IMG/VR virus record: IMGVR_UViG_3300025858_000011
Strand: one strand, 5' to 3'
Length of the DNA: 64,000 nucleotides
From: a virus
Taxonomy: Duplodnaviria > Heunggongvirae > Uroviricota > Caudoviricetes
Below are positions 15,051 to 53,620 of the stretch, piece by piece. Each line of letters starts with the position of its first letter. The stretch's first letter is position 1. The notes under the pieces are model-generated. The model had not been told where the DNA came from. It did not search any database and was given only the letters and a program-made list of their open reading frames with translations. The translations under genes were made by a program, and so were the position numbers.

Positions 15051-15080
15051 TTTAGTTCCTATTATTCTTATACCAATAAG

Positions 15081-15165
15081 CGGAGAGAACAGGGATTGAA
15101 CCTGTGTATCCTTTCGGATAGTCTCGGTTTAGCAAACCGGCCCCTTACCACTTGGGTATCCCTCC
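15081..15165 (-). tRNA. tRNA-Ser(GCT)
   Basis: acceptor GGAGGGA/TCTCTCC, anticodon loop TTGCTAA, long variable arm TATCCGAAAGGATA, T ACAGGTTCAATCCCTGT. Confidence 0.7.
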
Positions 15166-15175
15166 AAAATTTTAT

Positions 15176-15210
15176 GATAAAAAAAGCGTAGCCCTGTAGC
15201 AGGGCTACAG
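15176..15210 (-). terminator. intrinsic terminator (minus)
   Basis: GCGTAGCCCT..AGGGCTACAG hairpin + T-run on minus strand. Confidence 0.55.
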
Positions 15211-15504
15211 CTTCTGGACCATAAATCGATCATAGACTGGAAAGTCGGTTATAGTTCTCGATTCAGACCAACGCACCAATGTACTAGTACGATACGCCGC
15301 TAAATCCACTATAAAGGTCTCCCTGCTCCTTGCAGGCCTACCCATCGAGGTTTCCCCAACTCTTCGTATCACTCGAACTTCCAGAAGATTTCGTTCTGGT
15401 TGAATTCGAACTACTTCAAGTTCAAGTGCTACTCGGCAACCAGTTATGCTGTCGTGTACTGTTCTTGGTCCAGGGGCGATTATTTGTCCAACTTCAAATC
15501 TCAT
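15205..15504 (-). CDS. YDRF/YDKF-family small protein
   Basis: 99 aa; C-terminal ...FPVYDRFMVQKL; member of the repeated family, GC-rich codons. Confidence 0.55.
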   Translation of the reverse strand: MRFEVGQIIAPGPRTVHDSITGCRVALELEVVRIQPERNLLEVRVIRRVGETSMGRPARSRETFIVDLAAYRTSTLVRWSESRTITDFPVYDRFMVQKL

Positions 15505-15515
15505 TCAGTAGTCTC

Positions 15516-15788
15516 CTATAATGGGACAACCACCAACCGATCATAAATTACAAAATCTGAAAAACTAAATCCACCCACTTCAAGGTGTGCATCCTCAAAG
15601 TACTCTGAACTAACCCGATGACTTGAATCGACCATACTATTACCAGATAGTATTTTAACTTGAAACATGGGGGAATCACCAATATCCACCACCTCTAACT
15701 TTGCGTTATTTTTTAAAGAGGTGTAATTGTAGTGGTTTGAAAGGGGGCCTGGTATAATTATGTCCCCTACTTTAAAACGTCTTTCCAT
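15516..15788 (-). CDS. YDRF/YDKF-family small protein
   Basis: 90 aa; KVGDIIIPGP...FVIYDRLVVVPL. Confidence 0.55.
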   Translation of the reverse strand: MERRFKVGDIIIPGPLSNHYNYTSLKNNAKLEVVDIGDSPMFQVKILSGNSMVDSSHRVSSEYFEDAHLEVGGFSFSDFVIYDRLVVVPL

Positions 15789-15855
15789 GTGTAGTTCTCC
15801 AATGATAAAGAGGGAGGACTGGCCTCCCTCTCATAACAACCAGCGGACCTGTGAC

Positions 15856-16182
15856 TTAGGCCTTAAGGGCGTTCATGATAACGTCCACCTTAATGCCGAA
15901 GGTCTCCTCGAATTCCTTTGCCATCAGTTCCTGCGTCCAGGTCAAGCTGTGCAGCTTGGCCAACAGGGCGGTAATGGCATTGAGATCGTAACTCGGGGTA
16001 CCGAGCTTCTTGCGCTGTTCGGTCAATTCGGCTTCGATGGTTGCACGCTCACGATCGCCACGGAGATACTTCTCCGCAACGGAAACACGCGCTTGCTGCA
16101 GGTCGGCAGTCTTTTGTGCCTCAGATTTGTCTTTCGGGTCTTTTCCGTAGAATTGCTCCCAAAGAGTTATGGACTTTTCCAT
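15856..16182 (-). CDS. hypothetical protein (108 aa), GC-rich
   Basis: ORF with GC-rich codon usage unlike its neighbours. Confidence 0.5.
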   Translation of the reverse strand: MEKSITLWEQFYGKDPKDKSEAQKTADLQQARVSVAEKYLRGDRERATIEAELTEQRKKLGTPSYDLNAITALLAKLHSLTWTQELMAKEFEETFGIKVDVIMNALKA

Positions 16183-16242
16183 AGTTAATTCCTTCTTTTT
16201 TTATGTTAATGCATTAACACCCTCCCGGCTGGAGGCGTGTTG

Positions 16243-16317
16243 TGGACGCTACTGGATTTGAACCAATGATCTCCTGCTTGTAAGGCAGGCGCTTTGAACC
16301 AGCTGAGCTAAGCATCC
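16243..16317 (-). tRNA. tRNA-Val(TAC)
   Basis: acceptor GGATGCT/AGCGTCC, anticodon stem CCTGC/GCAGG loop CTTACAA, T ATTGGTTCAAATCCAGT. Confidence 0.65.
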
Positions 16318-16559
16318 CAGTATTTCTTTAAACAGATCTCACACTCTGGATCCCCACATCCAAGATATGATGCACTGTTTAATTCTTCCATTTTTAAAAA
16401 CTCTGCGTCTAAGTACTCATCCACTTCCTCATGATACTTGAAGTGTCTTTCCCGACGACTGGTGCTTTTTTTTAGAAGTTGTTTGTTTTTGCCTTTATAA
16501 TATTTTATACTAGGAAGGCAGTATATACAAAAAAATAATTTCGGTCTTTTTCTTTTCAT
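16308..16559 (-). CDS. zinc-finger-like hypothetical protein (83 aa)
   Basis: CIYC...CGDPECEIC. Confidence 0.4.
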   Translation of the reverse strand: MKRKRPKLFFCIYCLPSIKYYKGKNKQLLKKSTSRRERHFKYHEEVDEYLDAEFLKMEELNSASYLGCGDPECEICLKKYWDA

Positions 16560-16562
16560 AGT

Positions 16563-16637: not shown

Positions 16638-16638
16638 T

Positions 16639-17709: not shown

Positions 17710-17714
17710 TATTC

Positions 17715-18089
17715 TTATACCCTTTTTTTAAATTCTGTAAGTTTTATTTCTTTTGCACAAAAGATCCCATCTCGCTCAATTCCATCTAATTTAAGATAAA
17801 TTCCTTTATTCCAAAATTTATCCCAATCTCCAAGATCCGAGGGAAGATGATGTTTTATTAAAATTGGCTCTTTAATTTCAATCTTCCATATTTCAATGTC
17901 GATGTCATCTACTACAACAAATGTTCTGTAATGCCGCGCAAGAAGATCTACTTCTTCATAATCACTGCAAAAAAACAACATACCTCGTTTGGCAGCTGTC
18001 CAAACGTAAGGGGTATAAACTGTTTCATACTTACCTGTTGCCCATGGGGAAACCAAATTCCCAAACTGTCTTACTAAAAATTTATACAT
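17715..18089 (-). CDS. hypothetical protein (124 aa)
   Basis: ORF. Confidence 0.5.
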   Translation of the reverse strand: MYKFLVRQFGNLVSPWATGKYETVYTPYVWTAAKRGMLFFCSDYEEVDLLARHYRTFVVVDDIDIEIWKIEIKEPILIKHHLPSDLGDWDKFWNKGIYLKLDGIERDGIFCAKEIKLTEFKKRV

Positions 18090-19682: not shown

Positions 19683-19969
19683 GCCCTCCCCGGGACTCGG
19701 ACCCGGAACCTACGGATTCAAGATTATGTTAGTTTCCTAACGTCTTGGACTTTCTCTTTACCGTATCATATCTCTATGACTTAGGTAGTAGCCGTCAAGT
19801 CTCTACACTTCCCATCAATATTTATATTGACGGTTTAGCTCGGGATTGCCATAAAGTAATGCTACTTTTTAGGTTTCCCCGAATTTGACTACTTACACTT
19901 ATAAAATTTCTTTTATAAGGCCCAAATTTTTTAGAAGTCCGTTGCTCTGTCCAATTGAGCTAAGAGGGC
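19683..19969 (-). tRNA. tRNA-Arg(TCT) interrupted by 213-nt group I intron (exons 19933..19969 and 19683..19719)
   Basis: 5' exon GCCCTCT-TA-GCTCAATTGGACAGAGC-A-ACGGA-CTTCT; 3' exon AA-TCCGT-AGGTT-CCGGGTCCGAGTCCCGG-GGAGGGC-G; 5' exon ends U, intron ends G. Confidence 0.7.
19720..19932 (-). other. group I intron, subgroup IC3-like, inserted after anticodon position 36
   Basis: AGTAGTCAAATTCGGGGAAACCTAAAAAGT, TTATGGCAATCCCGAGCT and GGGAAGTGTAGAGACTTGACGGCTACTACCTAAGTCATAG closely match the Azoarcus pre-tRNA-Ile intron (GUGUCAAAUUCGGCGAAACCUAAGCG, UAUGGCAACGCCGAGCC, GAAGGUGUAGAGACUAGACGGCACCCACCUAAGGCA). Confidence 0.75.
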
Positions 19970-23298: not shown

Positions 23299-23685
23299 TT
23301 ACTTTTCGATCTCATAGATAGCAGCTATTGCTGCATCAACGATTTTATTTATGGCCATTATCTTGGCCATTTTTACATCTGTCTCAGTGTCTCTTGTTCT
23401 TGTTGCCCTCGAACTAAATCTTGCCTCTTCAACCTGATCAGGAATCTTTACGAGCATTGTTCTTGCCCGAAGATATGACCGAAATAATGCAAATTTAAGA
23501 TTTTGCACTTCGATCTCCCTTATCGCCGATTTTAATGAATCCTGAACAACTTCTACTACGGGAGTCATCCCTTTAGAGTTTACAAGATCTTCAAATGCTG
23601 CCTGTGCGGTATTTAATTCTTGCGTAGGGGCCTGTGCACATGCCAATAAAAGACATATGACAAAAAGAATTGATAACTTACGCAT
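23299..23685 (-). CDS. lipoprotein (128 aa)
   Basis: signal peptide + lipobox LLACAQ. Confidence 0.55.
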   Translation of the reverse strand: MRKLSILFVICLLLACAQAPTQELNTAQAAFEDLVNSKGMTPVVEVVQDSLKSAIREIEVQNLKFALFRSYLRARTMLVKIPDQVEEARFSSRATRTRDTETDVKMAKIMAINKIVDAAIAAIYEIEK

Positions 23686-23832
23686 ATCATCCTTTCAATT
23701 TTGATGACGAAGGCAATAAAAACAAAGCTAAACAAGTAGGGTTTGTTAGAATCATAATATGAATTATAAAAATGCCTTCGTCATAAATCTTATACCAATT
23801 AATATATGCAATGCTTTTTTAAAAAGCAAGTA

Positions 23833-25379: not shown

Positions 25380-26500
25380 AAATGAATAGTTGCCCAGGCG
25401 AACTGGGTGTCCTGATACACGTTTTTTATGGACATAAACTGCTGTCAGTTGACTTCGATGATCTTCGTGTAATAGTATCTAGGTAGCTCTGACAATCTAA
25501 GTCTATGCGAAAGTTCGCGTCATTGGAGAATACTTGTCTAGAATTTCCTCTCCGACTTGTTCTGCTCCAGCTATTCATTAATTGAGCACATTGTGCGCTA
25601 ATATTCTTAAAGTAAAAACAAAACAACTCAGGGTTGATTACTCAGCTCAGAGATTGCTTTGTTTAGAAAGCCTGAGACTACAGCTTTCAATACGCACCTC
25701 TACTCCCTTATTGTTTAGGAGCTTATCCACTACGACCGCTGTTAACGTATCGTAGTAGTGCGCGATGCCGGATGGGTTACCATCCAATTTCGATGTGGTC
25801 TGCTCGGCGATACTTCGTTCCCCCTGGGTTCGACCCCAAGAATCGGACCTTGCGAGTCCGGGAGAAATACCTACCAAAGACGATGGCTTCGCAAGCCATA
25901 GCCTTCCACTTTCCAATGGAGTGGACTTGGGCAACTTGTAAACCACACGCGGAAGCGTTTTTGCTTTTAATTGCATTCAATTTTTGGCATGTTAGCCGGA
26001 TTCAGGAATCGCACCTGATAATTTAATTACCATTATTCTCATTTTTAAGCCAGGAGCTTCCGTGAGGGACCATTTCCTTTTGAGAAACAGCATCCCTCCC
26101 TGGCCTATGGCAGCATCTCTGCTAACCGGTAATTTACTCCGCGCTCGCTACGCGTTTCTGTAAATCACTAGAGCACGCTCTTGACAATCGCTTGTCTCGA
26201 ACTAAGCTCTCTGATCTTGTCTCCCTAGCTAACTGTTAGACGTGTGCCCTCTAGTTCTAAGTAGAGGTATAGACTCGGCGGTCGCCCCTGTCTACGATGG
26301 CAATCACACACCAGCTTACTAAGTTCGCCCATTTAATAATAGGCACCTCTTTGTAGAGGCGAAAGATCATTGCTTGGACGGACTACGTACCACGGCAAGC
26401 CGCAATTCATAGCGCAAATTTACGTGAGATACGTAAGGATTGCTTTCCCGTATTACTACGGATTATCTTCCCAAGCGAAAAGCGTACATAGTACGCTACC
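25380..26500. other. 1.1-kb GC-rich ORF-poor segment (candidate structured RNA or foreign insert)
   Basis: ~50% GC versus ~35% around it; only short mutually overlapping ORFs; abundant local complementarity. Confidence 0.35.
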
Positions 26501-26506
26501 TTTTTC

Positions 26507-26953
26507 TTATACCAAGAAATTTTTTATTTGTTTAGATAGATCCTCGAGAGAAAAAACTACTTTAATATATGGACGTCTAAGTGATGTTTGTATTAATACA
26601 TCACTACGTCTTGTATATTCAGGATCTACGCCAATAAATAACATTTTAGGTTTATACATTGACCAGGCACCCAGCTCGTATAATACAATTGGGCATAGGG
26701 TTTCCTTAGGAAACCAGAATGATATGGCAGCTGCTTCATTTAAATGATAAAATTCCCACTCGATTTGCGCACGGGCGGCATTGGGATCGCTGATGGGAAA
26801 ATTCTTTCTTCGTGGATTAACAAGTATAATATCTTCATCTTTTAGAAGATCTACTAGTTCCGCTTGCCAATCGGGACATCCAGTTATCCCTCCAGCGAGG
26901 AATATATGATCTCCATGGCCGAGATAATTATTTGGAGCTTCAATGTATGTCAT
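26507..26953 (-). CDS. nucleoside 2-deoxyribosyltransferase-like protein
   Basis: IFLAGGITGCPDW...VNP...EWEF...LYELGAW pattern of Nuc_deoxyri_tr2-type Rossmann-like hydrolases. Confidence 0.5.
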   Translation of the reverse strand: MTYIEAPNNYLGHGDHIFLAGGITGCPDWQAELVDLLKDEDIILVNPRRKNFPISDPNAARAQIEWEFYHLNEAAAISFWFPKETLCPIVLYELGAWSMYKPKMLFIGVDPEYTRRSDVLIQTSLRRPYIKVVFSLEDLSKQIKNFLV

Positions 26954-32964: not shown

Positions 32965-33477
32965 TTAGGTTCTATCTATGTTCTTATACCGAAATTGATT
33001 TAAAATGCTCATTTGATCTACGGTCCACCATTCGGGTGGAGCTACTCCACGTTTCCATTTACTCTTCTTTCTGCTTTGTTGATAATAAGCCCGGTATGAC
33101 ACTACAACCTCAGACGATCTAAAACGAACAGGAACTGTTAGTTTAAATCCAAATGGACTATTAGGTAATCGCGTAGGAGCTATTTGCAATAATTTTATTA
33201 CATTTGCAAGTTTATGTTGACGTTGATATCTTATATTATATTGATTAAGTAATTCATTCAACATGATGCTTGCCCATCTATATTTATTTATGGTACACAT
33301 ATTCTGATCGATGGGCACCGGGGTATCATGTAATAATCTATATTTAAATGGAGATCCCAATGCCCAATGAATAAATGATAAATCTTTTGTAATCAAAAAA
33401 ATACTAGTAATTACATCCTGATCGCAATGTGCCTGTGCTGATAATATTGGATCGTAATCTAATATATTATAAATCAT
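32965..33477 (-). CDS. hypothetical protein (170 aa)
   Basis: ORF. Confidence 0.5.
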   Translation of the reverse strand: MIYNILDYDPILSAQAHCDQDVITSIFLITKDLSFIHWALGSPFKYRLLHDTPVPIDQNMCTINKYRWASIMLNELLNQYNIRYQRQHKLANVIKLLQIAPTRLPNSPFGFKLTVPVRFRSSEVVVSYRAYYQQSRKKSKWKRGVAPPEWWTVDQMSILNQFRYKNIDRT

Positions 33478-33634
33478 ATTATTTCCAATTTAAAAAAAAT
33501 TTGGGGGATTAGCCCGCAGACAAATCCCCCCATCTAAGTTATACCTAATATAAGATAGAAAGGGTACCGTTCTCTTCATTATATAAAGAGATTTGACGAT
33601 ATGTCTTTCTATAATTTTCTTATACCCTATTTTT

Positions 33635-33707
33635 ATTACATTTGCAGGGGCAGGAGGCATCGAACCCCCAACCGTCGGATTTGGAGTCCGATGCTCCGCC
33701 AGTTGAG
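33635..33707 (-). tRNA. tRNA-Trp(CCA)
   Basis: acceptor AGGGGCA/TGCCCCT, D GCTCAACTGGCGGAGC, anticodon stem TCGGA/TCCGA loop CTCCAAA, T GGGGGTTCGATGCCTCC. Confidence 0.75.
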
Positions 33708-33974
33708 CTATGCCCCTATGGCCGATAGGATGACCAAGACCAGGATATGCAATGCCTGATCTAACCAAATGCTTTTTATAATGCCTTGGCATTTAAATGC
33801 GTCGATTATCAAGTGCATAACAAATAGCACGATGAGACTCAACAGTCTTAGAGGGGAGAATAAAACGAATGGGGCTACATAAGTAGCGACATGATACATT
33901 AGTATCTCGTCACTTTTCACTTTTTCAGAGGACATCCAGGCGGATTGAAAGCGAAGTCCCCGATGAAGTGACAT
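33708..33974 (-). CDS. membrane protein (88 aa)
   Basis: two TM helices. Confidence 0.4.
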   Translation of the reverse strand: MSLHRGLRFQSAWMSSEKVKSDEILMYHVATYVAPFVLFSPLRLLSLIVLFVMHLIIDAFKCQGIIKSIWLDQALHILVLVILSAIGA

Positions 33975-34680: not shown

Positions 34681-34825
34681 TTTCTACAAAAGTCCACCTG
34701 GTAGAAAAAGTAACCCAAATAGTGCAACCATAGCTGTTAACACCAGGAGTATTAATAAAATTAAAAACTCTGGATCATTGATAAGTTTCATGTTACTTCC
34801 TATTTAAAGTTATTAATATCTAATG

Positions 34826-34857
34826 TTCTTATACCTATTCTTAAGGTAAAAAATAAG
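34826..34857 (-). promoter_or_regulatory. terminator-promoter composite motif copy
   Basis: TTCTTATACCTATTCTTAAGGTAAAAAATAAG. Confidence 0.45.
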
Positions 34858-35541
34858 CCTACGCGATTTGATGGTGACGGCGATTGGCCGTTATAGTCCA
34901 AGAATGTGCGTGGCTTATTTTTAAGGAGACTTTATGTCCTACGTATCTTATACCAGAAAAAATCTATAATGATTCACATTACAGATTTCTTTTCTTTTAA
35001 TGGTTGATATTTTGTAAATAAATTAGTTTCAGTAAATTGTCTAGTTATGTGATCATATATACCACTTACAATTATAGGTTCACATACACCACCTATTCCC
35101 ACGGTAGTGTGTCCTGATATAGTTCCACAAAAAGCATCTTCGCTAATTGGGCATGATAGTAAATCAAGACAATACCAATCACAAATTAGAAATTAGAAAC
35201 TTACATTGTACCTTTGTAAATGATACATACGGACATTTATTATTTTTCATTTCGTATTTTGTAATATAAATCCTCACATAATAATATCAAGTATACCAAT
35301 GAAAGGTATAGCTGAATACGTACTGCTGGATATGCTAAAAACTGAATAATTGTATTTATAGGCTTGCGTCCTCATAATGAAGAAATAATACATTTTTAAG
35401 ATTAATTATATGAACGACTTTGTTAACAAGAAATCTAAAAATTTTCCCGTCATCTTGTATATTATATGCATTTGGAAAATTAAATACATCCCCGTTTTCA
35501 AATTTTACATGAATAGTCGCCATATTTCCTCATATTATAAT

Positions 35542-37273: not shown

Positions 37274-37474
37274 TTAATTTGAAACTAATGGTTGAAAAAC
37301 ATTATCTTCTTCATTATGATAAATTGTTTTATTATAATCATTGCCGCCACACTTGGGGCATTTATAATTATAATAAGTAAAAGAGGGATTAGTATCTAAT
37401 ATTGCAGGTCTGTAATGATTCCCACAAAAACCACATACTGCCTCATCATCTTCTATTGTTCTTATACCTTCCAA
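37274..37474 (-). CDS. zinc-ribbon protein (66 aa)
   Basis: CGFCGNHY...CPKCGGNDY. Confidence 0.45.
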   Translation of the reverse strand: MEGIRTIEDDEAVCGFCGNHYRPAILDTNPSFTYYNYKCPKCGGNDYNKTIYHNEEDNVFQPLVSN

Positions 37475-39923: not shown

Positions 39924-39950
39924 TAAAAATTAATGTAAAAGAACCGGTTA
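39924..39950 (-). terminator. intrinsic terminator (minus)
   Basis: GGACCGGGTAACCGGTTC + TTTTACATTAATTTTT. Confidence 0.55.
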
Positions 39951-39994
39951 CCCGGTCCTTTCAGGAGAACCAATGAACACTGCGCACGTAGTTC

Positions 39995-40531
39995 TTATAC
40001 CAAATTCTTGGCATTCTCGAATGCGTCCGCGATGTCACATGGAATAATTACAGTGAATTCCCCTTTAATGAGCTGTTCATATATCCTTGAGAGCGACCCA
40101 TCGTTTTCAATCCCCCTTGGCCATGGGCATAATAGAAATTGAGGTTCTTTAACAGTTCCCCAGGCCCAGGCGCAGCTAGCGTAGTATGATCTCCAGGCCC
40201 AGTCTGAGGTCGGATGCACCCCAGAACGAAGAATGGACAGGATCGCCGTGTATATCAGCGGCATCGTCCATGGGGATTCAACGTCCCAACCCAGGGCGTC
40301 TATGATGTCCTGGAGCTTACGAAGATTCTTGCAGGTGATCAAACTTTCTGACACTTCATTAAGCTCCTCGATGGTATACCAGCCGATGCGTATTCTAGCG
40401 ATTAGTACATCGACTGCCTTTCTTTTGTATGCTTCAAATATCTCGTGAGGCATCAGACCTCCTTTCAATAGTACCATGAGTAGCCAAATAGAACCGGTCG
40501 TAGCCTGTAGCCGCACCGATGGCGGTATCAA
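39995..40531 (-). CDS. hypothetical protein (178 aa)
   Basis: ORF. Confidence 0.5.
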   Translation of the reverse strand: MIPPSVRLQATTGSIWLLMVLLKGGLMPHEIFEAYKRKAVDVLIARIRIGWYTIEELNEVSESLITCKNLRKLQDIIDALGWDVESPWTMPLIYTAILSILRSGVHPTSDWAWRSYYASCAWAWGTVKEPQFLLCPWPRGIENDGSLSRIYEQLIKGEFTVIIPCDIADAFENAKNLV

Positions 40532-40916: not shown

Positions 40917-41143
40917 AGCCTTTTTATCTCTCCTATGTGAGGTCTGACACCGATGAATCCTTCTATTGGTACACCATACAGAACTGCCTCGTCAAGTGTA
41001 CCACGAAAAAGTATAGCGGGACTTAGTATGTTATCAAAGAGAATAACCCAGTCTCTTACTTTGTCTACATAATAAGTGCGTAGTTCCTGGTATTCTGTTG
41101 ATTTTATAAAGCCTTCACTGCCATGAGCTGTCATGGATATCAA
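40913..41143 (-). CDS. hypothetical protein (76 aa)
   Basis: ORF. Confidence 0.4.
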   Translation of the reverse strand: MISMTAHGSEGFIKSTEYQELRTYYVDKVRDWVILFDNILSPAILFRGTLDEAVLYGVPIEGFIGVRPHIGEIKRL

Positions 41144-41164: not shown

Positions 41165-41200
41165 TTCTTATACCAATTCTTAATGTAAGAAAAGGAAGAA
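41165..41200 (-). promoter_or_regulatory. terminator-promoter composite motif copy
   Basis: TTCTTATACCAATTCTTAATGTAAGAAAAGG, ~25 nt upstream (minus) of gene start 41143. Confidence 0.5.
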
Positions 41201-41228
41201 ATCTCCCTTTCTACGTAGGTGCAAGGCC

Positions 41229-43833: not shown

Positions 43834-43870
43834 TTCTTATACCTATTCTTAATGTAAAAAAGCGGAGGAT
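43834..43870 (-). promoter_or_regulatory. terminator-promoter composite motif copy
   Basis: TTCTTATACCTATTCTTAATGTAAAAAAGCGGAGG; minus reading gives GGTATAAGAAC-N12-AAGGAGG-ATG (43816). Confidence 0.55.
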
Positions 43871-43877
43871 CCCTCCT

Positions 43878-44099
43878 CTAATAAAGCGGAACTGCATCTA
43901 TGAACTTTTTGGAAGGAGTGGACGGAATGCTGCTTACATAATAATAAATGGGGAAAGTGAGGGTTAGATTTCGTAGACGATCATAGGCTCCGGGATATGC
44001 AGAGCGCATTTCCATCGCTCGTTCCAGTTCATATAAACTTGTCGCCTGACGTTCATTGCATGCTGATGTCTCGGTTTTGTTGAGATTTAAATATTTCAT
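43878..44099 (-). CDS. hypothetical protein (73 aa)
   Basis: ORF. Confidence 0.4.
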   Translation of the reverse strand: MKYLNLNKTETSACNERQATSLYELERAMEMRSAYPGAYDRLRNLTLTFPIYYYVSSIPSTPSKKFIDAVPLY

Positions 44100-44167: not shown

Positions 44168-44398
44168 TTAGTCTTCCAGGGGGCTCACGACGGTTTTTCC
44201 GCCGAGGACCTTATCGCCGAATTTGTGGCCGAGGAAAAAAGTGCCGATGGCTGCGACGGTTGCGGTTGCACCAGCGATGATCCAGGTGGCCGGATCTTTG
44301 GCCGAAGTCCTTACACGCGTAACCATGTTCGGAGATGTCTGAATGGCATCTGCAACGAACTCTTCAGGAGTTTGTTTGGACATGATAACCTTTCTCAT
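44168..44398 (-). CDS. hypothetical protein (76 aa) with C-terminal TM
   Basis: ORF. Confidence 0.45.
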   Translation of the reverse strand: MRKVIMSKQTPEEFVADAIQTSPNMVTRVRTSAKDPATWIIAGATATVAAIGTFFLGHKFGDKVLGGKTVVSPLED

Positions 44399-44440
44399 TA
44401 AAGATTAAGAACTGTACTATCTATAGAGTTCTTATACCAA

Positions 44441-44760: not shown

Positions 44761-44901
44761 TCATCCACACCTCGCCATGAAGTCCTTCAGGGACTCCATT
44801 CTGCGAGGCAGCTTGTGTCGGGTGTGAACCATTTCGATGACTTCGGTACGTTCGGTTTTTCCGAACAAACTGCAAATCCAACTCCAAAGTTTCGTCAACA
44901 T
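44761..44901 (-). CDS. small hypothetical protein (46 aa)
   Basis: AGGAG SD + ATG; preceded on minus strand by a GGTATAAGAAAG promoter-motif copy. Confidence 0.35.
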   Translation of the reverse strand: MLTKLWSWICSLFGKTERTEVIEMVHTRHKLPRRMESLKDFMARCG

Positions 44902-44958
44902 GCTTTTTCTCCTAAAGTTTGGGGTTGCTTTCTATCTTTCTTATACCTATATTTAAGC

Positions 44959-46896: not shown

Positions 46897-47573
46897 GTGT
46901 ACAAAAAGAAATATTAACCGCGGCAATTACCGCGGATTTATCGCAGTATGACCTTGTTACTGAAGATGGTCTTTCTATTCCTACGGAATTCAGTTATAAT
47001 GGTCTTATAGTAACTGTGCCAGAAGGATACTATGATGATGTAGCAAAACGTGGTAATATCAGAAGTGTTAATTTAAGGTATGATGTAATAGATGCAGCAA
47101 TTACGCCCGAGGAAGACGCAGGCCAAACACTAGTATTTGATCAGGTGCGAGCTGTAGAGAACCAAAGACTGGCTACAGTATTATCGGATAGAATATTAGG
47201 GCACATCGTTGAATATTTAGAAACAGATGCTGCTGCTAATAATATTGAATTAGCTAGGAAGCAAACACAATCCATCGTTGATGATGTAGTTAAAATAACA
47301 GAGAATATAGAAGACCTTGCAATATTTGCAAATTCTCAATCCGTAAGTTATAATCAGTTATTAACTATATTACAGACTACATTTGCTGCTGTACTAGGTG
47401 GAGCAGCGGCGATTCCATTATTAGCAAATTTACAGGCTACCTACGCAGCTCCTAATATTATTACATCTGCAACTCAGATTCAAGCTGATATGATTGAGTT
47501 GAAGACAAAATTAGAAGAGATAAAAAAGACACTAGATACAATTACTCGAGATAATTCTATAGCTGTAATATAA
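46893..47573 (+). CDS. hypothetical virion-associated protein (226 aa)
   Basis: ORF translationally coupled to spike gene. Confidence 0.5.
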   Translation: MSVQKEILTAAITADLSQYDLVTEDGLSIPTEFSYNGLIVTVPEGYYDDVAKRGNIRSVNLRYDVIDAAITPEEDAGQTLVFDQVRAVENQRLATVLSDRILGHIVEYLETDAAANNIELARKQTQSIVDDVVKITENIEDLAIFANSQSVSYNQLLTILQTTFAAVLGGAAAIPLLANLQATYAAPNIITSATQIQADMIELKTKLEEIKKTLDTITRDNSIAVI

Positions 47574-47592
47574 TTTTAATGTAAAAAGAAAA

Positions 47593-47620
47593 AGCCCTGT
47601 TTCCAGGGCTCTTTCCTCTA
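47593..47620 (+). terminator. intrinsic terminator (plus)
   Basis: AGCCCTGTTTCCAGGGCT + CTTTCCTCT. Confidence 0.5.
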
Positions 47621-47791
47621 TCGTGCAGCATTGGGCGCCGGCCGAAAGAAGGTTGACTCCGGAAGTCTGACGACTTCCACTCCCACTGTTCCAAAACAGA
47701 ACCTGGATTCATCCAGGTCATTTAGTAACGTGCCATTGCCCGAAGTAATAGTGTCCTGCTGGGCCTGCTGGCCCAAATCCTGCGTTTCCAT
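47618..47791 (-). CDS. small hypothetical protein (57 aa)
   Basis: AAGGAG SD before the internal Met of ORF 47618..47860; promoter motif upstream. Confidence 0.4.
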   Translation of the reverse strand: METQDLGQQAQQDTITSGNGTLLNDLDESRFCFGTVGVEVVRLPESTFFRPAPNAAR

Positions 47792-47825: not shown

Positions 47826-47876
47826 TTCTTATACCAAAACTTAATGTAAAAAATAGGCAAAAGGCTCTTTGCCTAT
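47826..47876 (-). promoter_or_regulatory. terminator-promoter composite motif copy (TTCTTATACC-N-TTAATGTAAAAAA + hairpin)
   Basis: on minus strand: hairpin AGGCAAAGAGCCTTTTGCCT, TTTTTTACATTAAG, then GGTATAAGAAC ~35 nt upstream of ATG 47791. Confidence 0.55.
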
Positions 47877-48072
47877 CTTCGAGAAAGGGGGCTGACGAGG
47901 CCCGGAGAAATTTTTAGGGGACGCATTAGGTGCCCCTTCCGAGGGGGATATTCCTCGGTTCAATTTGAATAAAAATAGAAAAAATTTAACTCGATAAACT
48001 TTTTCTTTTTTTATTCATTTCACTTCTCCGGTTTGGGTTCCACTTTAAAAAAAGACTAATTATTTATCATTG

Positions 48073-48120
48073 TTCTTATACCAAGTTTTAACGTAAGAAA
48101 AGCGCGTTAGCGCTCCTCCG
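48073..48120 (-). promoter_or_regulatory. terminator-promoter composite motif copy
   Basis: TTCTTATACCAAGTTTTAACGTAAGAAAA + GCGCGTTAGCGC hairpin. Confidence 0.5.
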
Positions 48121-48189: not shown

Positions 48190-48525
48190 TTAACTGCGTT
48201 CCGGGATTTCTCTCCCGGTGTGATCATAACCCCAGAATGTTTCCTTCGTGGGGGCGAACCAATTTCGTATTGCAGTTTGGATGTGGGACCCAGACATAGT
48301 ACCTCTCGGTTCTTGTCCGAGTTTCGGAGTACTCCGGCGTTCGTATTTACGCCAATGATAATAGCCTCTGGCATCCCAGGCATTTGGCTTATCGGTGCGG
48401 ACCAGAATAGCTGAGCAATGGTCCTCACCAATCCATAACTCGTCTGCCTCATTAAAAGTCCGAGTTTCGGACTCATTCATGTGGCAACGCATGAATTGTG
48501 CTGTTACAAATGTTCCCAAATACAT
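48190..48525 (-). CDS. hypothetical protein (111 aa)
   Basis: start moved to internal ATG with AGGAGA SD; motif copy at 48561 lies upstream. Confidence 0.45.
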   Translation of the reverse strand: MYLGTFVTAQFMRCHMNESETRTFNEADELWIGEDHCSAILVRTDKPNAWDARGYYHWRKYERRSTPKLGQEPRGTMSGSHIQTAIRNWFAPTKETFWGYDHTGREIPERS

Positions 48526-48560
48526 CTTTGTTCTCCTAGTTAATGATTCCTCGTCAATTT

Positions 48561-48600
48561 TTTTATACCTAATATTAATGTAAAAGAAAGCCAATTCGGC
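48561..48600 (-). promoter_or_regulatory. terminator-promoter composite motif copy (variant TTTATACC)
   Basis: TTTATACCTAATATTAATGTAAAAGAAA + GCCAATTCGGC hairpin. Confidence 0.5.
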
Positions 48601-48830
48601 TTTCTCTACGCCAACTAAGTTGGCAGTTAACTTGAAGGCAGGGGCCATGTATACCGGCCCAATATGTAAGAACCGAAAATGAAACAGAGAGGGTCAGACT
48701 CATAGGGCTCGATATGAATTACTGACTATTTATGGCCTGGCGATAATCGTGCTCATCGCGGTCGGTGGTTTTTAAATTGTGAGCCTCTATGCGACTACCT
48801 CGCATATAGACTATATTTCTATAGTCTTCA

Positions 48831-48885
48831 TTCTTATACCAAAAATTTTAATGTAAAAAACTTGGTAGCCGCAGGCTACCAAGCA
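48831..48885 (-). promoter_or_regulatory. terminator-promoter composite motif copy
   Basis: TTCTTATACCAAAAATTTTAATGTAAAAAA + GGTAGCCGCAGGCTACC hairpin. Confidence 0.5.
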
Positions 48886-49082
48886 CATGCCAACTACCCT
48901 GAGTTGGCTAAGCAAGTTATAGCACGGCCTTATAACCTTGCTTCTCGAGAAGCCTTCCTAAGAAGGACAGCATGGATTTTAAACACCGTGCGGGCCTCAC
49001 CATAAAGGCACAATTTCCTCCTAATCTCTGCAGCGAGGGAGGGACCATATTATTGGTCTTTATTCTTATACCGATAAAAAAC

Positions 49083-49112
49083 ACTTGACGTTTACAGTTT
49101 AGTTCAATATAT
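49083..49112 (+). promoter_or_regulatory. sigma70-like promoter for plus-strand structural gene
   Basis: TTGACG-17 nt-TATATT upstream of 49155 ATG (SD GGAGG). Confidence 0.45.
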
Positions 49113-49154
49113 TTAATCATGAACACAAATCAACAATTTTTGGAGGATATAAAT

Positions 49155-51368: not shown

Positions 51369-52190
51369 ATGGCATTAGATGTTAGAATGTTATTAGCAAA
51401 AGGAAAGCAGTACGGTAAACAATTAGTTAGTGAGAGTGTTGAATCTGCTAAGAATTTACCACATGCACCTAAATATTTTAGTAATATAAGAAAAGATATT
51501 AGATTGCTAAATTTGCCAAAGAAAGATAGCAGAGTTATAATGAAGCAACGTGCCGCTGATGCACTTCATACAGAATTAATTGAAGAGAAACGTAAATTAA
51601 GATCTGCAATGAAATTGCCACTTGCTGGAGTTGCTGGATATGGCGGTTATAAAGCTGTAAAAATTATGAGAGATCCTAAGATTCCTCAAAATTATGTAGA
51701 AGCTCCAGAAGGTCAGTATCTTACTGAAGAGGAATTGTTAAAATCATCTGCTTTTGATTTTAGAAAGATTATAGGTGCAGCGGCTGCAAAATTTAGAAAT
51801 AGAACATTATCAGTTGCTGAACAGGCTGCAACTAGTGTAAAAGGTACACCTAAGATTAAGTCTGTTGCATCATCTTTTGATGCAGCTAAGGCTCGTGCTA
51901 CAGATATTCCATTTGCTGATGTACATAGTAATGTTGTTAAACCAATAGATATTCGCAATGGTATAGCTAGTAAACCTAAAGCTCCTGATGTACAGGATAT
52001 AAAGTTTAAAGATGTGAAACCAGCTTCAGCAAAGGCTTCAGCTCCTGAACCAACTATAAAAGTAGTTCCTGCTCCAGTTCCTGAACCAAAAAAGAGTGGA
52101 ATAGCTAAGTATGTTATGGCTGGAGGTGCTATAGGTGTAGGTGCAATTGCTCTTAATTCAAATAAGAAAAAGAAAGAAGAAGAATATTAA
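51369..52190 (+). CDS. hypothetical protein with C-terminal TM anchor (273 aa)
   Basis: ORF. Confidence 0.55.
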   Translation: MALDVRMLLAKGKQYGKQLVSESVESAKNLPHAPKYFSNIRKDIRLLNLPKKDSRVIMKQRAADALHTELIEEKRKLRSAMKLPLAGVAGYGGYKAVKIMRDPKIPQNYVEAPEGQYLTEEELLKSSAFDFRKIIGAAAAKFRNRTLSVAEQAATSVKGTPKIKSVASSFDAAKARATDIPFADVHSNVVKPIDIRNGIASKPKAPDVQDIKFKDVKPASAKASAPEPTIKVVPAPVPEPKKSGIAKYVMAGGAIGVGAIALNSNKKKKEEEY

Positions 52191-52204
52191 GTAGGAGATA
52201 ACAA

Positions 52205-52480
52205 ATGGGTAAAGCTGAAACAATTATGGATGGTATGAAGTATTTATTGCGCAGAACAAAACAATTACCACAGAATATAAGTGAAGTGGTTGCTGCAAAT
52301 AAGATAGTAAATAAGAAAGTGCCTATTGACATGTTTTCTGATACAACAAAGATTATTAATGAGGCTAAGAGAGTAAGACAAGTTGGTTTAAAGAAGATTT
52401 GGCAAGGAGCTCAACTTCCTTTAGCTGCTGGTGCTGGAGGTGGGTTAGGTCTTGCTGCCACTAGGTCATCTGATCAGTAA
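52205..52480 (+). CDS. hypothetical protein (91 aa)
   Basis: ORF. Confidence 0.45.
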   Translation: MGKAETIMDGMKYLLRRTKQLPQNISEVVAANKIVNKKVPIDMFSDTTKIINEAKRVRQVGLKKIWQGAQLPLAAGAGGGLGLAATRSSDQ

Positions 52481-52532
52481 TCTGGATCTACCCTGATAAA
52501 CACATTTTGTAAAGTTAATTTTTGTATGTATA

Positions 52533-52922
52533 ATGGATAATATGATGAAAACATTAATTATAGATGATGAATTACAAGCATATGACTGTGTTAAGAACAT
52601 GTTGGGGTGCTATGATGTAGCTGAAACTGGTTTGATAGGGATCGAGTATGCTGAGACTGCTCTAAAAGTTAACTCCTATTATAATTTAATTTTATTAGAT
52701 GTTGTAATACCAGGTCTTAATGGCATAGAAGTTATAAAAAGGCTTAGAGATCTTGAAAAACATTACAACATCAAGTCAATTAGGGAAGCTAAAATTATAG
52801 TAGTCTCATCTCGTAGGGATGAGCCTGCTATACTAGAGGCATTCAGGAATGGAGCAACAGGATGGATTGAGAAACCAGTAGTTACAGATATACTTATAAC
52901 TAAACTAAAAAACTTAATGTAA
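52533..52922 (+). CDS. stand-alone response-regulator receiver (REC/CheY-like) domain protein
   Basis: LIIDDE acidic pocket, LILLDVVIPGLNG phospho-acceptor Asp, IVVSS, GATGWIEKP. Confidence 0.65.
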   Translation: MDNMMKTLIIDDELQAYDCVKNMLGCYDVAETGLIGIEYAETALKVNSYYNLILLDVVIPGLNGIEVIKRLRDLEKHYNIKSIREAKIIVVSSRRDEPAILEAFRNGATGWIEKPVVTDILITKLKNLM

Positions 52923-52950
52923 AAAAGAATCCCAGACTTACATCTGGGAT
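52918..52950 (-). terminator. hairpin terminator (probably bidirectional) with partial TTAATGTAAAAAA motif
   Basis: AATCCCAGACTTACATCTGGGATT flanked by an A-run (plus) / T-run (minus). Confidence 0.5.
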
Positions 52951-52962
52951 TCCATGTGCTGA

Positions 52963-53112
52963 CTAAGCCTGAACCTCTTGCGAGGCACGCTTATCAAGCA
53001 CCGATTTCGCCACGAAGGATGCAGCCGTGATGGCAGCGAGTGTCAGTACAACAATGACTTTTGTCTTGTGCACTTTGACAGCGCTGATAGCGGCAACGAT
53101 TTTCTCGTTCAT
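52963..53112 (-). CDS. small membrane protein (49 aa)
   Basis: internal Met of ORF 52963..53313 with AAGGA SD; motif copy at 53165 upstream. Confidence 0.35.
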   Translation of the reverse strand: MNEKIVAAISAVKVHKTKVIVVLTLAAITAASFVAKSVLDKRASQEVQA

Positions 53113-53342
53113 AGTCTTATCCTTTCTCTGGTGAAAAACTTGACCTTTATTAGGTCCGTCAATACTCTTATACCATAAAATACAAATAATCTTGCGAGAT
53201 TGGGTCCCATACACTACCCCCTCCCTCGTTCCAGGATCTAACCTGTAATTTATATATTTTATTGTATCTGGTATCAAATTCGAAAACCTAAAATTTTTTT
53301 TGGAAAAAAACACACATGAATAAAGCGCAAAATATTATAATA

Positions 53343-53372
53343 TAAAAAGAGAGCCTTGCGGCTCTCTTAGAT
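53343..53372 (-). terminator. intrinsic terminator (minus)
   Basis: AGAGAGCCGCAAGGCTCTCT + TTTTATATT. Confidence 0.55.
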
Positions 53373-53374
53373 GC

Positions 53375-53541
53375 TACGACTGCTGAGCGTTATACTCACG
53401 CAATCCTTGCATCGCAATTTCCATTTCCTTTTTTTGCCACTCAACTAGATGGGGTGCAACAACTACTGCAAGCAGTATCGCACAGGCACCAGCAACGATG
53501 GGAGCTCCATAGTCGCACACGAAGTTTTTAATTCTGTTCAT
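53375..53541 (-). CDS. small membrane protein (55 aa)
   Basis: CAGGAGA SD + ATG; MNRIKNFVCDYGAPIVAGACAILLAVVVAP; motif copy at 53588 upstream. Confidence 0.4.
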
Positions 53542-53620
53542 TGTGTATCTCCTGAAATGAAGTGAATGTACTTCGATTAATTACATAGTTCTTATATACC
53601 ATAAAATTTAGAGAAATAGT

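What the first reader, a model, noticed from the sequence alone, without database searches (positions are those of the whole stretch)
15065..53599. Seventeen same-orientation copies of a terminator-promoter composite motif
TTCTTATACC-N(4-9)-TTAATGTAAAAAA followed by a GC hairpin occurs at 15065, 32981, 33606, 34826, 37459, 39992, 41165, 43834, 44429, 44938, 47826, 48073, 48561, 48831, 49064, 53165 and 53588. Every copy is in the same orientation, even inside the plus-strand block. Read on the minus strand each unit is hairpin + U-tract, running into TTTTTTACATTAAG, then GGTATAAGAAC, placed 25-40 nt upstream of a minus-strand ATG with a good SD (for example 43816, 47791, 48525, 44901, 53541, 53112). 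The unit therefore looks like an intrinsic terminator fused to a phage-specific promoter. The GGTATAAGAA box fits the sigma70 -10/-35 spacing poorly and may be recognised by a phage sigma factor or RNAP.
Basis: seen in the sequence. Interest (0 to 1): 0.6.

Follow-up and report, generated by a model that had tools for sequence, protein, structure and literature searches.

The report
Phage-specific promoter, often fused to terminators
A 10-base signal (GGTATAAGAA, read on the minus strand) marks the start of the leftward genes of this 204-kb phage, often directly after the previous gene's terminator; the same signal recurs in a large, mostly uncultured group of big phages that encode their own RNA polymerase, so it is probably that group's own promoter.

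Summary
The core observation is real. GGTATAAGAA occurs 17 times exactly on the minus strand and never on the plus strand (about 0.2 expected). Nearly all copies lie outside genes, and 13 lie 2-52 nt upstream of an SD-led start codon; one lies 14 nt before a tRNA and one about 400 nt before a GOLLD RNA. The "composite" description is overstated. Only 7-8 copies carry the upstream hairpin, T-run and TTTACATTAA(G). Three terminators carry that tail with no core. Two listed coordinates are off, and three exact copies were missed.

The core is best read as a phage-specific promoter with no -35 box. It looks like a -10 element, with G fixed where sigma70 needs T, and a conserved T-purine 5-6 nt downstream that is the likely start site.

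The same core, with the same strand logic, occurs in:
- cultured Salmonella phage Arash (30 minus, 1 plus), whose virions carry a fused beta/beta' RNA polymerase and a sigma factor;
- 74 viral contigs encoding that polymerase (235 vs 12, GC 0.37-0.61);
- an AT-rich relative of this window that encodes a 2,023-aa fused polymerase.

The composites resemble T4-type PeSL cassettes. No transcript data exist.

The parts
34826..34864 (-). Composite: weak hairpin, T-run, TTTACCTTAAG, then core GGTATAAGAA (34835-34826). SD-ATG at 34791.
41165..41212 (-). Composite: terminator hairpin 41212-41188 (-14.3 kcal/mol), CTTACATTAAG, then core 41174-41165. Start codon at 41143 or 41134.
43834..43879 (-). Composite: hairpin 43879-43861, TTTTTTACATTAAG, then core 43843-43834. 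SD-ATG at 43816 (RadC-like gene, 175 aa).
47826..47880 (-). Composite: hairpin 47880-47849 (-14.8), TTTTTTACATTAAG, then core 47835-47826. SD-ATG at 47791.
48073..48119 (-). Composite: hairpin 48119-48096 (-19.1), CTTACGTTAAA, then core 48082-48073. A short ORF starts near 48018.
48560..48607 (-). Composite with a variant core: hairpin 48607-48583 (-21.0), TTTACATTAA, then GGTATAAAAA (48569-48560). SD-ATG at 48525.
48831..48884 (-). Composite: hairpin 48884-48860 (11 pairs, -17.8), TTTTTTACATTAAA, then core 48840-48831. About 230 nt of hairpin-rich sequence follow, with no ORF before the next terminator.
15065..15074 (-). Stand-alone core between tRNA-Ser (15080-15165) and tRNA-Lys (14977-15050), 14 nt before the tRNA.
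17712..17721 (-). Stand-alone core ending 2 nt before the ATG of the peptide deformylase gene (17709). It overlaps the stop codon of the upstream gene.
26504..26513 (-). Stand-alone core about 400 nt upstream of the GOLLD RNA match (26107-25669), with no called ORF in between.
32981..32990 (-). Stand-alone core. SD-GTG at 32945 (35 nt downstream).
33617..33626 (-). Stand-alone core 18 nt after tRNA-Trp (33644-33717).
37459..37468 (-). Stand-alone core overlapping the stop codon of the 720-aa primase/helicase gene. A second near-copy, GGTATAAGTT, lies 21 nt upstream.
39992..40001 (-). Stand-alone core followed, about 30 nt downstream, by the orphan terminator 39962-39930. Gene start at 39910.
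44429..44438 (-). Stand-alone core (TTTACC lies 12 nt upstream, no hairpin). SD-ATG at 44383.
44938..44947 (-). Stand-alone core. SD-ATG at 44901 (46-aa ORF). It sits back-to-back with the start of the plus-strand 645/693-aa gene.
49063..49072 (-). Stand-alone core, divergent from the plus-strand sigma70-like promoter at 49085-49113. A short ORF starts near 49013.
723..732 (-). Exact core inside the 539-aa gene (437-2056). Either an internal promoter or the one copy that chance could give.
53165..53174 (-). Variant core GGTATAAGAG. SD-ATG at 53112.
53588..53600 (-). Variant core with a 2-nt insertion, GGTATATAAGAAC. SD-ATG at 53541.
63170..63179 (-). Variant core GGTATAAAAA, divergent from the plus-strand promoter at 63190-63218. 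SD-ATG at 63147. The orthologous site in relative L179 reads GGTATAAGAA.
23787..23796 (-). Variant core GGTATAAGAT, 101 nt before the ATG at 23685.
34945..34954 (-). Variant core GGTATAAGAT, intergenic.
39930..39962 (-). Orphan terminator: hairpin (-16.3) plus TTTACATTAA with no core. It lies in the leader between core 40001 and the ATG at 39910.
47576..47619 (-). Orphan terminator: hairpin (-23.9) plus TTTACATTAA with no core, at the end of a minus-strand island and convergent with the plus-strand gene ending at 47573.
52914..52953 (-). Orphan terminator: 12-pair hairpin (-18.8) plus TTTTTTACATTAAG. Only a degenerate core (GTTATAAGTA) follows, 13 nt on. Convergent with the plus-strand gene ending at 52922.
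49085..49113 (+). Second promoter class, for contrast: TTGACG-N17-TATATT upstream of the 734/746-aa plus-strand gene.
55530..55558 (+). Second promoter class: TTGACT-N17-TATATT upstream of the plus-strand operon starting at 55598.
63190..63218 (+). Second promoter class: TTGACA-N17-TATATT, 5 nt before the ATG of the SNF2 helicase gene (63224).

Best explanation
GGTATAAGAA (minus strand) is the promoter of the leftward transcription units of this ~204-kb phage. These units hold small ORFs, replication and nucleotide-metabolism genes, tRNAs and a GOLLD RNA.

How it is proposed to work:
- It is a single-box, -10-like element. If TATAAG occupies -12 to -7, then GG sits at -14/-13, G replaces the T that sigma70 needs at -7, and there is no fixed -35 box.
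- Transcription probably starts at the conserved purine that follows a conserved T, 5-6 nt after the 10-mer.
- It is most likely read by phage-encoded machinery, not by the unmodified host sigma70 holoenzyme. The candidate is a fused beta/beta' multisubunit-type RNA polymerase, a phage sigma factor, or both, as encoded by relatives. This step is inferred.
- In the gene-island region (34-53 kb), the promoter is fused through a conserved AT-rich linker (T-run, ACATTAAGAAT) to the Rho-independent terminator of the preceding gene. Each small gene there is an insulated terminator-promoter-gene unit, resembling the PeSL cassettes of T4-type phages.
- A separate class, TTGACx-N17-TATATT, serves the rightward genes.
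For: Shown in the window:
- 17 exact copies on the minus strand, 0 on the plus strand, about 0.18 expected.
- 15 of 17 lie outside called genes although 80% of the window is coding.
- 13 cores or variants are followed by an SD-led start codon within 2-52 nt. One lies 14 nt before a tRNA and one lies upstream of GOLLD.
- The spacer to the TTTACA box is 11 nt, and the cores without that box have no conserved -35-like hexamer.
- A T-purine pair is conserved at positions 14-15 of the motif.
- Hairpins upstream of the TTTACATTAA tail fold at -14 to -24 kcal/mol, with z-scores of -2.8 to -6.9 for 8 of 10.

Shown in other genomes:
- The complete genome of cultured phage Arash (GC 0.53) has GGTATAAG 30 times on the minus strand and once on the plus strand. 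The minus-strand copies sit upstream of minus-strand CDS, tRNA or SD-ATG starts, and most lie 20-60 nt before an annotated start (read against the annotation tables).
- Arash virions contain RNA polymerase proteins gp206 and gp216, sigma factor gp10 and SNF2 helicase gp217 (PMC10585845).
- In 74 IMG/VR loci encoding gp206 homologues, the motif occurs 235 times opposite the polymerase gene and 12 times on its strand, over 1.29 Mb and GC 0.37-0.61.
- In 38 loci with distant beta'-C-terminal homologues, the counts are 50 vs 3.
- The AT-rich relative contig that carries the same composite motif (L007/L061, 7 cores) encodes a 2,023-aa fused beta-beta' polymerase with the NADLDGD catalytic motif.
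- L259 (GC 0.27) has the motif divergent from its polymerase gene.
- The window shares its SNF2 helicase (35-39% identity) and LigD-type ligase (24-33%) with polymerase-encoding relatives (Arash, L259, several IMG/VR loci), and the 236-aa and 746-aa proteins with AT-rich motif-bearing relatives (L007, L067).

Literature:
- Jumbo phages that encode RNA polymerases have ~10-nt conserved early promoter motifs centred near -10, with the start site about 6 nt downstream (PMC7598289, PMC5312081).
Against: - There are no transcript 5' ends for any of these phages.
- No RNA polymerase or sigma gene was found in the 71.6 kb of this genome that could be read (Pfam lists; motif scan; phmmer). The other ~130 kb could not be fetched.
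- TGGTATAAG resembles an extended -10 element (TGnTATAAT), so recognition by host RNA polymerase, possibly modified by the phage, is not excluded.
- Vibrio phage D69 has a homologous polymerase (29% identity) but no such motif in 47 kb. L177, a relative by helicase similarity, has none in 21 kb.
- One exact copy (723) lies inside a gene.
- The function of the TTTACATTAAGAAT linker is unexplained.
Confidence: 0.62

Rival explanations
1. The core is an extended -10 promoter read by the host's primary sigma holoenzyme, either unmodified or helped by a small phage protein. No phage polymerase or sigma factor is involved.
For: - TATAAG differs from TATAAT at only one base.
- G at -14 is invariant, and T at -15 is the commonest base (about half to three quarters of sites), which mimics the TGn extended -10 element.
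- The sequence upstream is AT-rich or T-rich, like an UP element.
- No polymerase or sigma gene was seen in the readable part of this genome.
Against: - G at the -7 position is invariant in 17 of 17 copies here and in all 30 minus-strand GGTATAAG sites in Arash. T at -7 is one of the two bases that sigma70 flips out and binds (PMC7598289).
- The identical 8-mer is kept in phages from GC 0.27 to 0.61, which presumably have very different hosts.
- The same genomes hold a separate, near-consensus class, TTGACA-N17-TATATT.
Confidence: 0.2
2. The repeats matter mainly as recombination cassettes, like PeSLs. They would be conserved homology patches that shuffle small genes, with promoter activity secondary or absent in many copies.
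For: - Composite copies cluster in 34-53 kb, each flanking a single small gene.
- Partial cassettes exist: three orphan terminators carry the tail, and two of these are followed by degenerate cores.
- The conserved linker is shared by diverged relatives.
- PeSLs are described as doing this in T4-type phages (PMC2839356, PMC4122927).
Against: - Hairpin sequences differ between copies, so the shared homology is only about 25-30 nt.
- Stand-alone cores occur before tRNAs, before GOLLD and before core replication genes.
- The core is conserved in distant, GC-rich genomes that lack the linker.
- No indel comparison between close relatives could be made.
Confidence: 0.1
3. The motif acts at the RNA level, as a processing site or translation enhancer, or is a binding site for a regulator rather than a promoter.
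For: The motif sits at a short and fairly constant distance upstream of start codons.
Against: - It also precedes tRNA-Lys and the GOLLD RNA, which are not translated.
- In the composites it lies downstream of a terminator, so little read-through RNA would contain it.
- Its -10-like sequence and the conserved T-purine 5-6 nt downstream fit an initiation signal.
Confidence: 0.05

Closest known systems
Early promoters of RNA-polymerase-encoding jumbo phages (phiKZ; AR9 AAATATATATTAT-N6-G), read by the virion RNA polymerase
   Same: Both are a single, highly conserved box of about 10 nt centred near -10 with no -35 element. In both, the start site (known for AR9 and phiKZ, inferred here) lies about 6 nt downstream. 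Both occur in many copies in front of small early-type genes and can be found by over-representation alone (PMC7598289, PMC5312081).
   Different: The sequence is different. The polymerases of the relatives here are fused beta-beta' proteins (1,525 + 606 aa, or about 2,020 aa in one chain) that standard Pfam models recognise, not the split phiKZ type. Sigma-factor genes are present in Arash and D69. The motif is shared across very diverged phages, whereas the phiKZ-group motifs differ from phage to phage. The temporal class and the reading enzyme are untested here.
PeSL (promoter-early stem-loop) composite terminator/promoter cassettes of T4-type phages
   Same: Both are a stem-loop terminator directly followed by a conserved promoter. 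Both are repeated many times and bracket single small ORFs in variable regions (PMC2839356, PMC4122927).
   Different: The promoter here is not a T4-type sigma70 early promoter, and the phage is not T4-like. A recombination role was not tested. Fewer than half of the promoter copies here are composite.
T4 late promoter TATAAATA (gp55 sigma, from my own knowledge)
   Same: Both are an 8-10-nt -10-like box with no -35 element. TATAAGAA matches TATAAATA at 6 of 8 positions. Both are conserved across a phage group whatever the host, because the phage supplies the recognition factor.
   Different: This motif drives tRNA, replication and small early-type genes, not structural genes. It has the extra invariant GG. 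No gp55 or gp33 homologue was seen.
Bacterial extended -10 promoters (TGnTATAAT)
   Same: G at -14, often T at -15, the shared TATAA bases, and no -35 box.
   Different: G is invariant at -7, G is invariant at -13, and AA is conserved at -6/-5 in the AT-rich group.

Membership tests
Sigma70/sigmaA-type promoter | -10 hexamer TATAAT with A at -11 and T at -7 | tested here: not met
   A at -11 is present, but -7 is G in 17 of 17 exact copies here and in all 30 minus-strand GGTATAAG sites in Arash.
Sigma70/sigmaA-type promoter | -35 hexamer (TTGACA-like) 17 +/- 1 bp upstream of the -10 hexamer | tested here: not met
   No position around -35 is conserved. TTTACA, where present, lies 11 bp (once 13 bp) from TATAAG. 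Genuine TTGACx-N17-TATATT sites form a separate class.
Sigma70/sigmaA-type promoter | Extended -10 element TG at -15/-14 | tested here: inconclusive
   G at -14 is invariant. T at -15 reaches only the 50-75% consensus level.
Intrinsic (Rho-independent) terminator | GC-rich hairpin directly followed by a T-run, at the 3' end of a gene | tested here: met
   Met for the composite and orphan sites. Hairpins fold at -14 to -24 kcal/mol with z-scores down to -6.9, followed by T4-T6. The sites at 34850 and 43858 are weak. The stand-alone cores have no such hairpin.
Intrinsic (Rho-independent) terminator | Transcripts actually end in the T-run | not testable with these tools
   No RNA data are available.
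PeSL composite cassette (T4-type phages) | Stem-loop terminator immediately upstream of a conserved promoter, repeated around small ORFs in variable regions | tested here: met
   There are 7-8 composites between 34.8 and 48.9 kb, each in front of a small ORF or short transcription unit.
PeSL composite cassette (T4-type phages) | The promoter part is a T4-type early (sigma70) promoter in a T4-like genome | tested here: not met
   The motif is different. Megablast and tblastn found no T4-like or other known-phage similarity.
PeSL composite cassette (T4-type phages) | Indel and replacement end points between close relatives fall in the cassettes | not tested
   The only other assemblies of this region are 100% identical. 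The nearest relative, L179, covers a region without composites.
Phage-polymerase early promoter (jumbo-phage type) | A conserved box of about 10 nt near -10, over-represented upstream of early-type operons | tested here: met
Phage-polymerase early promoter (jumbo-phage type) | The genome encodes its own multisubunit-type RNA polymerase | tested here: inconclusive
   None was found in the 71.6 kb that could be read. It is present in relatives that carry the motif: L242 (2,023 aa), Arash, L259 and 74 IMG/VR loci. The rest of this contig could not be fetched.
Phage-polymerase early promoter (jumbo-phage type) | Start site about 6 nt downstream; transcription early and independent of host RNA polymerase | not testable with these tools
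   The only support is a conserved T-purine 5-6 nt downstream of the motif.
T4 late promoter (gp55) | TATAAATA box in front of late structural genes; gp55 and gp33 encoded | tested here: not met
   The box matches at 6 of 8 positions only. The genes it precedes are tRNAs, primase/helicase, RadC, deformylase and small ORFs. No sigma-like Pfam hit was found in the window.

The most novel reading that the evidence does not exclude
GGTATAAG is the shared promoter of a large, almost entirely uncultured lineage of big phages whose RNA polymerase is a fused beta-beta' enzyme. In some members the enzyme is a single chain of about 2,000 aa. In Arash it is carried in the virion together with a sigma70-family factor. 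If so, this would be a virion-delivered, sigma-dependent phage polymerase with one promoter specificity held constant across hosts from GC 0.27 to 0.61. The terminator-linked TTTACATTAAGAAT tail could then be a signal specific to that enzyme, for termination or re-initiation.
Probability: 0.3. Interest if true: 0.72.

Novelty: new member of a known kind. Interest (0 to 1): 0.5.

Why it matters
- It gives a simple sequence marker that splits the genes of a whole, poorly known phage group into two transcription classes directly from metagenomic DNA.
- It names a cultured model in which the prediction can be tested at once. Salmonella phage Arash has the same motif at 30 sites, and its published description contains no promoter analysis.
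- If the fused beta-beta' polymerase, with or without the phage sigma factor, reads this box, it would be a compact multisubunit-type polymerase and promoter pair independent of host transcription. That would interest work on the evolution of transcription and on expression tools.
- The composite terminator-promoter units also show how this phage insulates single small genes placed inside an oppositely transcribed block.

Tried and rejected
Searches that found nothing useful:
- Megablast of 12 kb and tblastn of the 746-aa protein against 50,697 phage records gave no match.
- The search for related loci with the primase/helicase in IMG/VR gave nothing.
- The window's own contig is absent from the metagenome contigs and viral contigs collections, so a genome-wide count was impossible.
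- A literature search for the string GGTATAAG returned only primer sequences and unrelated papers.

Attempts to find a polymerase or sigma gene in this genome:
- Pfam on the large ORFs and the precomputed Pfam lists found none.
- A six-frame scan for the [FY]DGD catalytic motif found none.
- phmmer with the Arash proteins matched only the SNF2 helicase.
P0268 (206.7-kb contig) turned out to be a different phage.
- The neighbourhoods of helicase homologues P0130 and P0122 hold no polymerase.
- Two look-ups of genes near the left end returned only short contigs, so the window's left flank could not be extended beyond 432 bp.

Ideas considered and dropped:
- Reading TTTACA as a -35 box. Rejected because the spacer is 11 nt, and the alternative -10 candidate at 17 nt (AACTAT) is poor.
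- The TTTACATTAA tail as a general feature of minus-strand terminators. Rejected because strong terminators at 5279, 13530, 15209, 22657 and 30556 lack it.
- TTGTCAAG upstream of some cores as a -35 box. It is the reverse complement of the -35 box of the divergent plus-strand promoter.
- The motif as universal among phages with this polymerase. Rejected because Vibrio phage D69 lacks it in 47 kb.

Full report
**What the window is.** The window is part of a ~204.3-kb metagenomic contig (JGI 3300009694 Ga0116170_10000006). ENA holds a 204,363-bp assembly with a different start point, which suggests a circular or permuted phage genome. It has no nucleotide match in 50,697 phage records, and its 746-aa protein finds no match there either. 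Bases 1-42 kb are transcribed leftward and hold 21 tRNA genes, all on the minus strand. From 42 kb onward most genes run rightward, with islands of small leftward genes.

**Checking the observation.**
- GGTATAAGAA (the minus-strand reading of TTCTTATACC) occurs 17 times exactly on the minus strand and never on the plus strand. A 3rd-order Markov model expects 0.18.
- With one mismatch allowed there are 32 matches against 6.5 +/- 2.4 in shuffles, and 29 are on the minus strand.
- It is the most over-represented 8-10-mer in the window. TTACATTAA comes second, with 11 copies against 1.0 expected.
33606 should be 33617, and 49064 should be 49063.
- 48561 (really 48560) and 53165 are one-mismatch variants. 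53588 is GGTATATAAGAAC, a variant with a 2-nt insertion.
- Exact copies at 723, 17712 and 26504 were missed.
- The composite description holds for only 7-8 sites: 34826 (weak), 41165, 43834, 47826, 48073, 48560 and 48831. There a hairpin of -14 to -21 kcal/mol and a T-run run into (T/C)TTAC(A/C/G)TTAA(G/A), followed 4-6 nt later by the core.
- The other cores have only AT-rich sequence upstream.
- Three good terminators with the same tail have no core (39930, 47576, 52914).
- Strong minus-strand terminators in 1-33 kb lack the tail.

**Position relative to genes.**
- About 80% of the window is coding, yet 15 of the 17 exact copies lie outside called genes. One overlaps the last codons of an ORF, and one (723) is inside a 539-aa gene.
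- 13 cores or variants are followed by an SD-led start codon 2-52 nt downstream.
- 15065 lies 14 nt before tRNA-Lys.
- 26504 lies about 400 nt upstream of a full-length GOLLD RNA match, with no ORF called by JGI/ENA in between.
- This rules out a purely translational role and fits a promoter.
- No copy faces a plus-strand gene. The copies 'inside the plus-strand block' precede small minus-strand genes embedded there.

**Anatomy of the core.**
- If TATAAG is placed at -12 to -7, GG sits at -14/-13 and G occupies -7, the position where sigma70 needs T.
- Nothing around -35 is conserved. TTTACA, where present, is 11 bp away (once 13 bp), too close for a sigma70-type -35 box.
- A T followed by a purine is conserved at motif positions 14-15, which is 5-6 nt after the 10-mer. 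This is the probable start site.
- Rightward operons instead carry near-consensus TTGACx-N17-TATATT at 49085, 55530 and 63190, and at 68466 just beyond the window. At 49.07 and 63.18 kb the two classes are arranged back to back.

**Relatives with the same signal.** Exact-pattern scans for the composite found diverged contigs in which the core is again repeated on one strand upstream of SD-ATG, often after a hairpin, T-run and TTTAC-TTAAGAAT tail:
- a 179.9-kb IMG/VR contig, read as L007 and L061, with 7 cores;
- a 41.8-kb contig, L015, with 6 cores;
- an 82-kb contig, L067, with 12 cores in 13 kb;
- several smaller contigs, including one from the Sargasso Sea data.

L179, whose helicase is 76% identical to the one at the window's right edge, has the same divergent pair of promoters at the orthologous place.

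**The link to a phage RNA polymerase.**
- The SNF2 helicase that begins at the window's right edge (63224-64618; its last 618 bases lie beyond the window and were read from L005) is 35% identical to gp217 of Salmonella phage Arash.
- Arash (180.8 kb, GC 0.53) encodes gp206 and gp216. gp206 is a 1,525-aa fusion of beta and the N-terminal part of beta', with the AADYDGD catalytic motif. gp216 is the C-terminal part of beta'. It also encodes two sigma factors.
- Its virions contain gp206, gp216, sigma factor gp10 and the helicase. The paper describing Arash does not mention promoters (PMC10585845).
- In the complete Arash genome GGTATAAG occurs 30 times on the minus strand and once on the plus strand. 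Read against the annotation, most minus-strand copies lie 20-60 nt before the start of an annotated minus-strand CDS or tRNA. The rest precede unannotated SD-ATG ORFs or lie further upstream of the next gene (one about 150 nt).
- gp206 has hundreds of metagenomic homologues. In 74 IMG/VR loci around such genes (1.29 Mb, GC 0.37-0.61), GGTATAAG occurs 235 times on the strand opposite the polymerase gene and 12 times on its strand. About 20 per strand are expected by chance.
- In 38 loci with more distant homologues of the beta' C-terminal part, the counts are 50 vs 3.
- One of those distant loci, L242, lies on the same 179.9-kb contig as L007. It encodes a 2,023-aa single-chain beta-beta' polymerase (Pfam Rpb2_6, Rpb1_2, Rpb1_5; NADLDGD; 32% identical to gp206). 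A TTGACA-N17-TATATT site precedes the gene, and a GGTATAAG core diverges from it.
- A 206.7-kb contig of GC 0.27 (L259) shows the gene order polymerase, then (after five other genes) LigD-type ligase, then SNF2 helicase. It also has a core divergent from the polymerase gene. The window's ligase and helicase are 33% and 39% identical to those of L259.
- Both groups share tGGTATAAG-N5-T-purine. The GC-richer group adds TTCAATA about 17 bp upstream in roughly 30% of sites. The AT-rich group adds AA after the core and the TTAAGAAT and T-run tail in roughly half of sites.

**Interpretation.** A -10-like box is kept letter for letter in phages whose GC content spans 0.27-0.61. It always lies on the strand of the early-type genes, in genomes that also carry an ordinary sigma70-like promoter class. 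This is what one expects if the phage supplies the recognition factor. T4 late promoters with gp55, and the early promoters of phiKZ and AR9 read by virion RNA polymerase, behave the same way (PMC7598289, PMC5312081).

I therefore read the core as a phage-specific promoter, most likely read by the fused beta-beta' polymerase, a phage sigma factor, or both. The step from motif to enzyme is inferred. I could not see the polymerase gene of this particular genome, because only 71.6 of about 204 kb could be read. Which enzyme reads which class is also unknown. The near-consensus sigma70-like site in front of the polymerase gene in L242 would fit a T7-like cascade. The virion-packaged enzyme in Arash would fit a phiKZ-like one.

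Host sigma70 reading an extended -10 element remains a real alternative (about 0.2). Two counter-examples show the motif is not universal: Vibrio phage D69, with a 29%-identical polymerase, lacks it in 47 kb, and L177 lacks it in 21 kb.

**The composite.** In 34-53 kb the promoter is fused to the previous gene's terminator, so single small genes form insulated units, some of them inside the oppositely transcribed block. The nearest described thing is the PeSL cassette of T4-type phages, a composite terminator/early-promoter motif implicated in gene shuffling (PMC2839356, PMC4122927).

The hairpin sequences differ between copies. Only the T-run, linker and core are shared. The tail occurs at three terminators without a core, and two of these are followed by degenerate cores. 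In relative L084 the T-run abuts the core directly. The role of the linker is open: an upstream promoter element, a termination signal specific to one polymerase, or a recombination patch.

**Novelty.** Phage-specific promoters and terminator-promoter cassettes are known kinds of feature. This sequence, and its conservation across a large uncharacterised polymerase-encoding lineage, was not found in the literature searched. It can be tested directly in a cultured phage.

Noticed in passing
window 25669-26107 (-): Full-length match to GOLLD RNA (RF02032): 165.5 bits against a gathering score of 150, model positions 1-416. An exact GGTATAAGAA core lies about 400 nt upstream, and JGI/ENA call no ORF in between. 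One pipeline called a 109-aa ORF (25647-25976) inside the RNA, probably spurious.
   Followed up: partly
window 19726-19944 (-) and 8180-8435 (-): Two group I intron matches (RF00028; 81.6 and 72 bits). The genes they interrupt were not worked out.
   Followed up: no
window 49085-49113, 55530-55558, 63190-63218 (+); 68466 beyond the window (L005); weaker at 8309: A second promoter class, TTGACx-N17-TATATT, precedes rightward operons. At 44948, 49108 and 63213 the TATATT is followed by exactly 5 nt and then ATG, which suggests leaderless mRNAs or start codons called too early. At 49119 an SD-led ATG lies 36 nt further on. The same TATATT-5-ATG arrangement occurs in relatives L007 and L179.
   Followed up: partly
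window 39930-40001 (-): A core (40001-39992) is followed within about 30 nt by a strong terminator hairpin with the TTTACATTAA tail, and only then by the gene start at 39910. This layout looks like an attenuator or a regulated leader.
   Followed up: no
window 48600-48831 (-): The promoter at 48840-48831 is followed by about 230 nt holding several perfect hairpins (for example GACTATAGAAATATAGTC) and no ORF before the next terminator. This may be a small RNA.
   Followed up: no
Salmonella phage Arash OQ632216 (L097-L101): Rightward genes (structural proteins, polymerase, endolysin) are preceded about 25-35 nt upstream by (C/T)TAAAATA, for example before gp185, gp188, gp212, gp216, gp218, gp241, gp39 and gp2. 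In several places this box abuts the leftward core back to back (TATTTTAG|GGTATAAG). It is a probable second promoter class and is not discussed in the Arash paper.
   Followed up: partly
hit list (P0244, P0247, P0261, P0264, P0272-P0275 and others): Many of the ~2,000-aa fused beta-beta' polymerases are lengthened to 2,400-3,500 aa by intein or homing-endonuclease domains (PF14528, PF14890, PF05204).
   Followed up: no
window 437-2844 (-): A PP2C-type phosphatase gene (2041-2844) overlaps by 16 nt the 539-aa gene immediately downstream of it on the minus strand (437-2056). That protein's N-terminal half looks kinase-like (my own reading of the sequence, with no Pfam hit). Two Band_7 proteins, ARPP-1, two receiver-domain proteins and NADAR also lie in the window.
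   Followed up: no
L084 (Ga0265323_10006044), L067: In relative L084 the terminator T-run runs straight into the core (TTTTTTAC|GGTATAAG) without the ~10-nt ATTAAGAATA linker seen in the window. The linker is therefore dispensable, or specific to one lineage.
   Followed up: no
L262 (Vibrio phage D69, OZ195729 123345-170321): This cultured phage has a homologous beta-beta' polymerase (29% identity) and a sigma-factor gene, but no GGTATAAG upstream of its leftward genes in 47 kb. Its promoter must differ.
   Followed up: no
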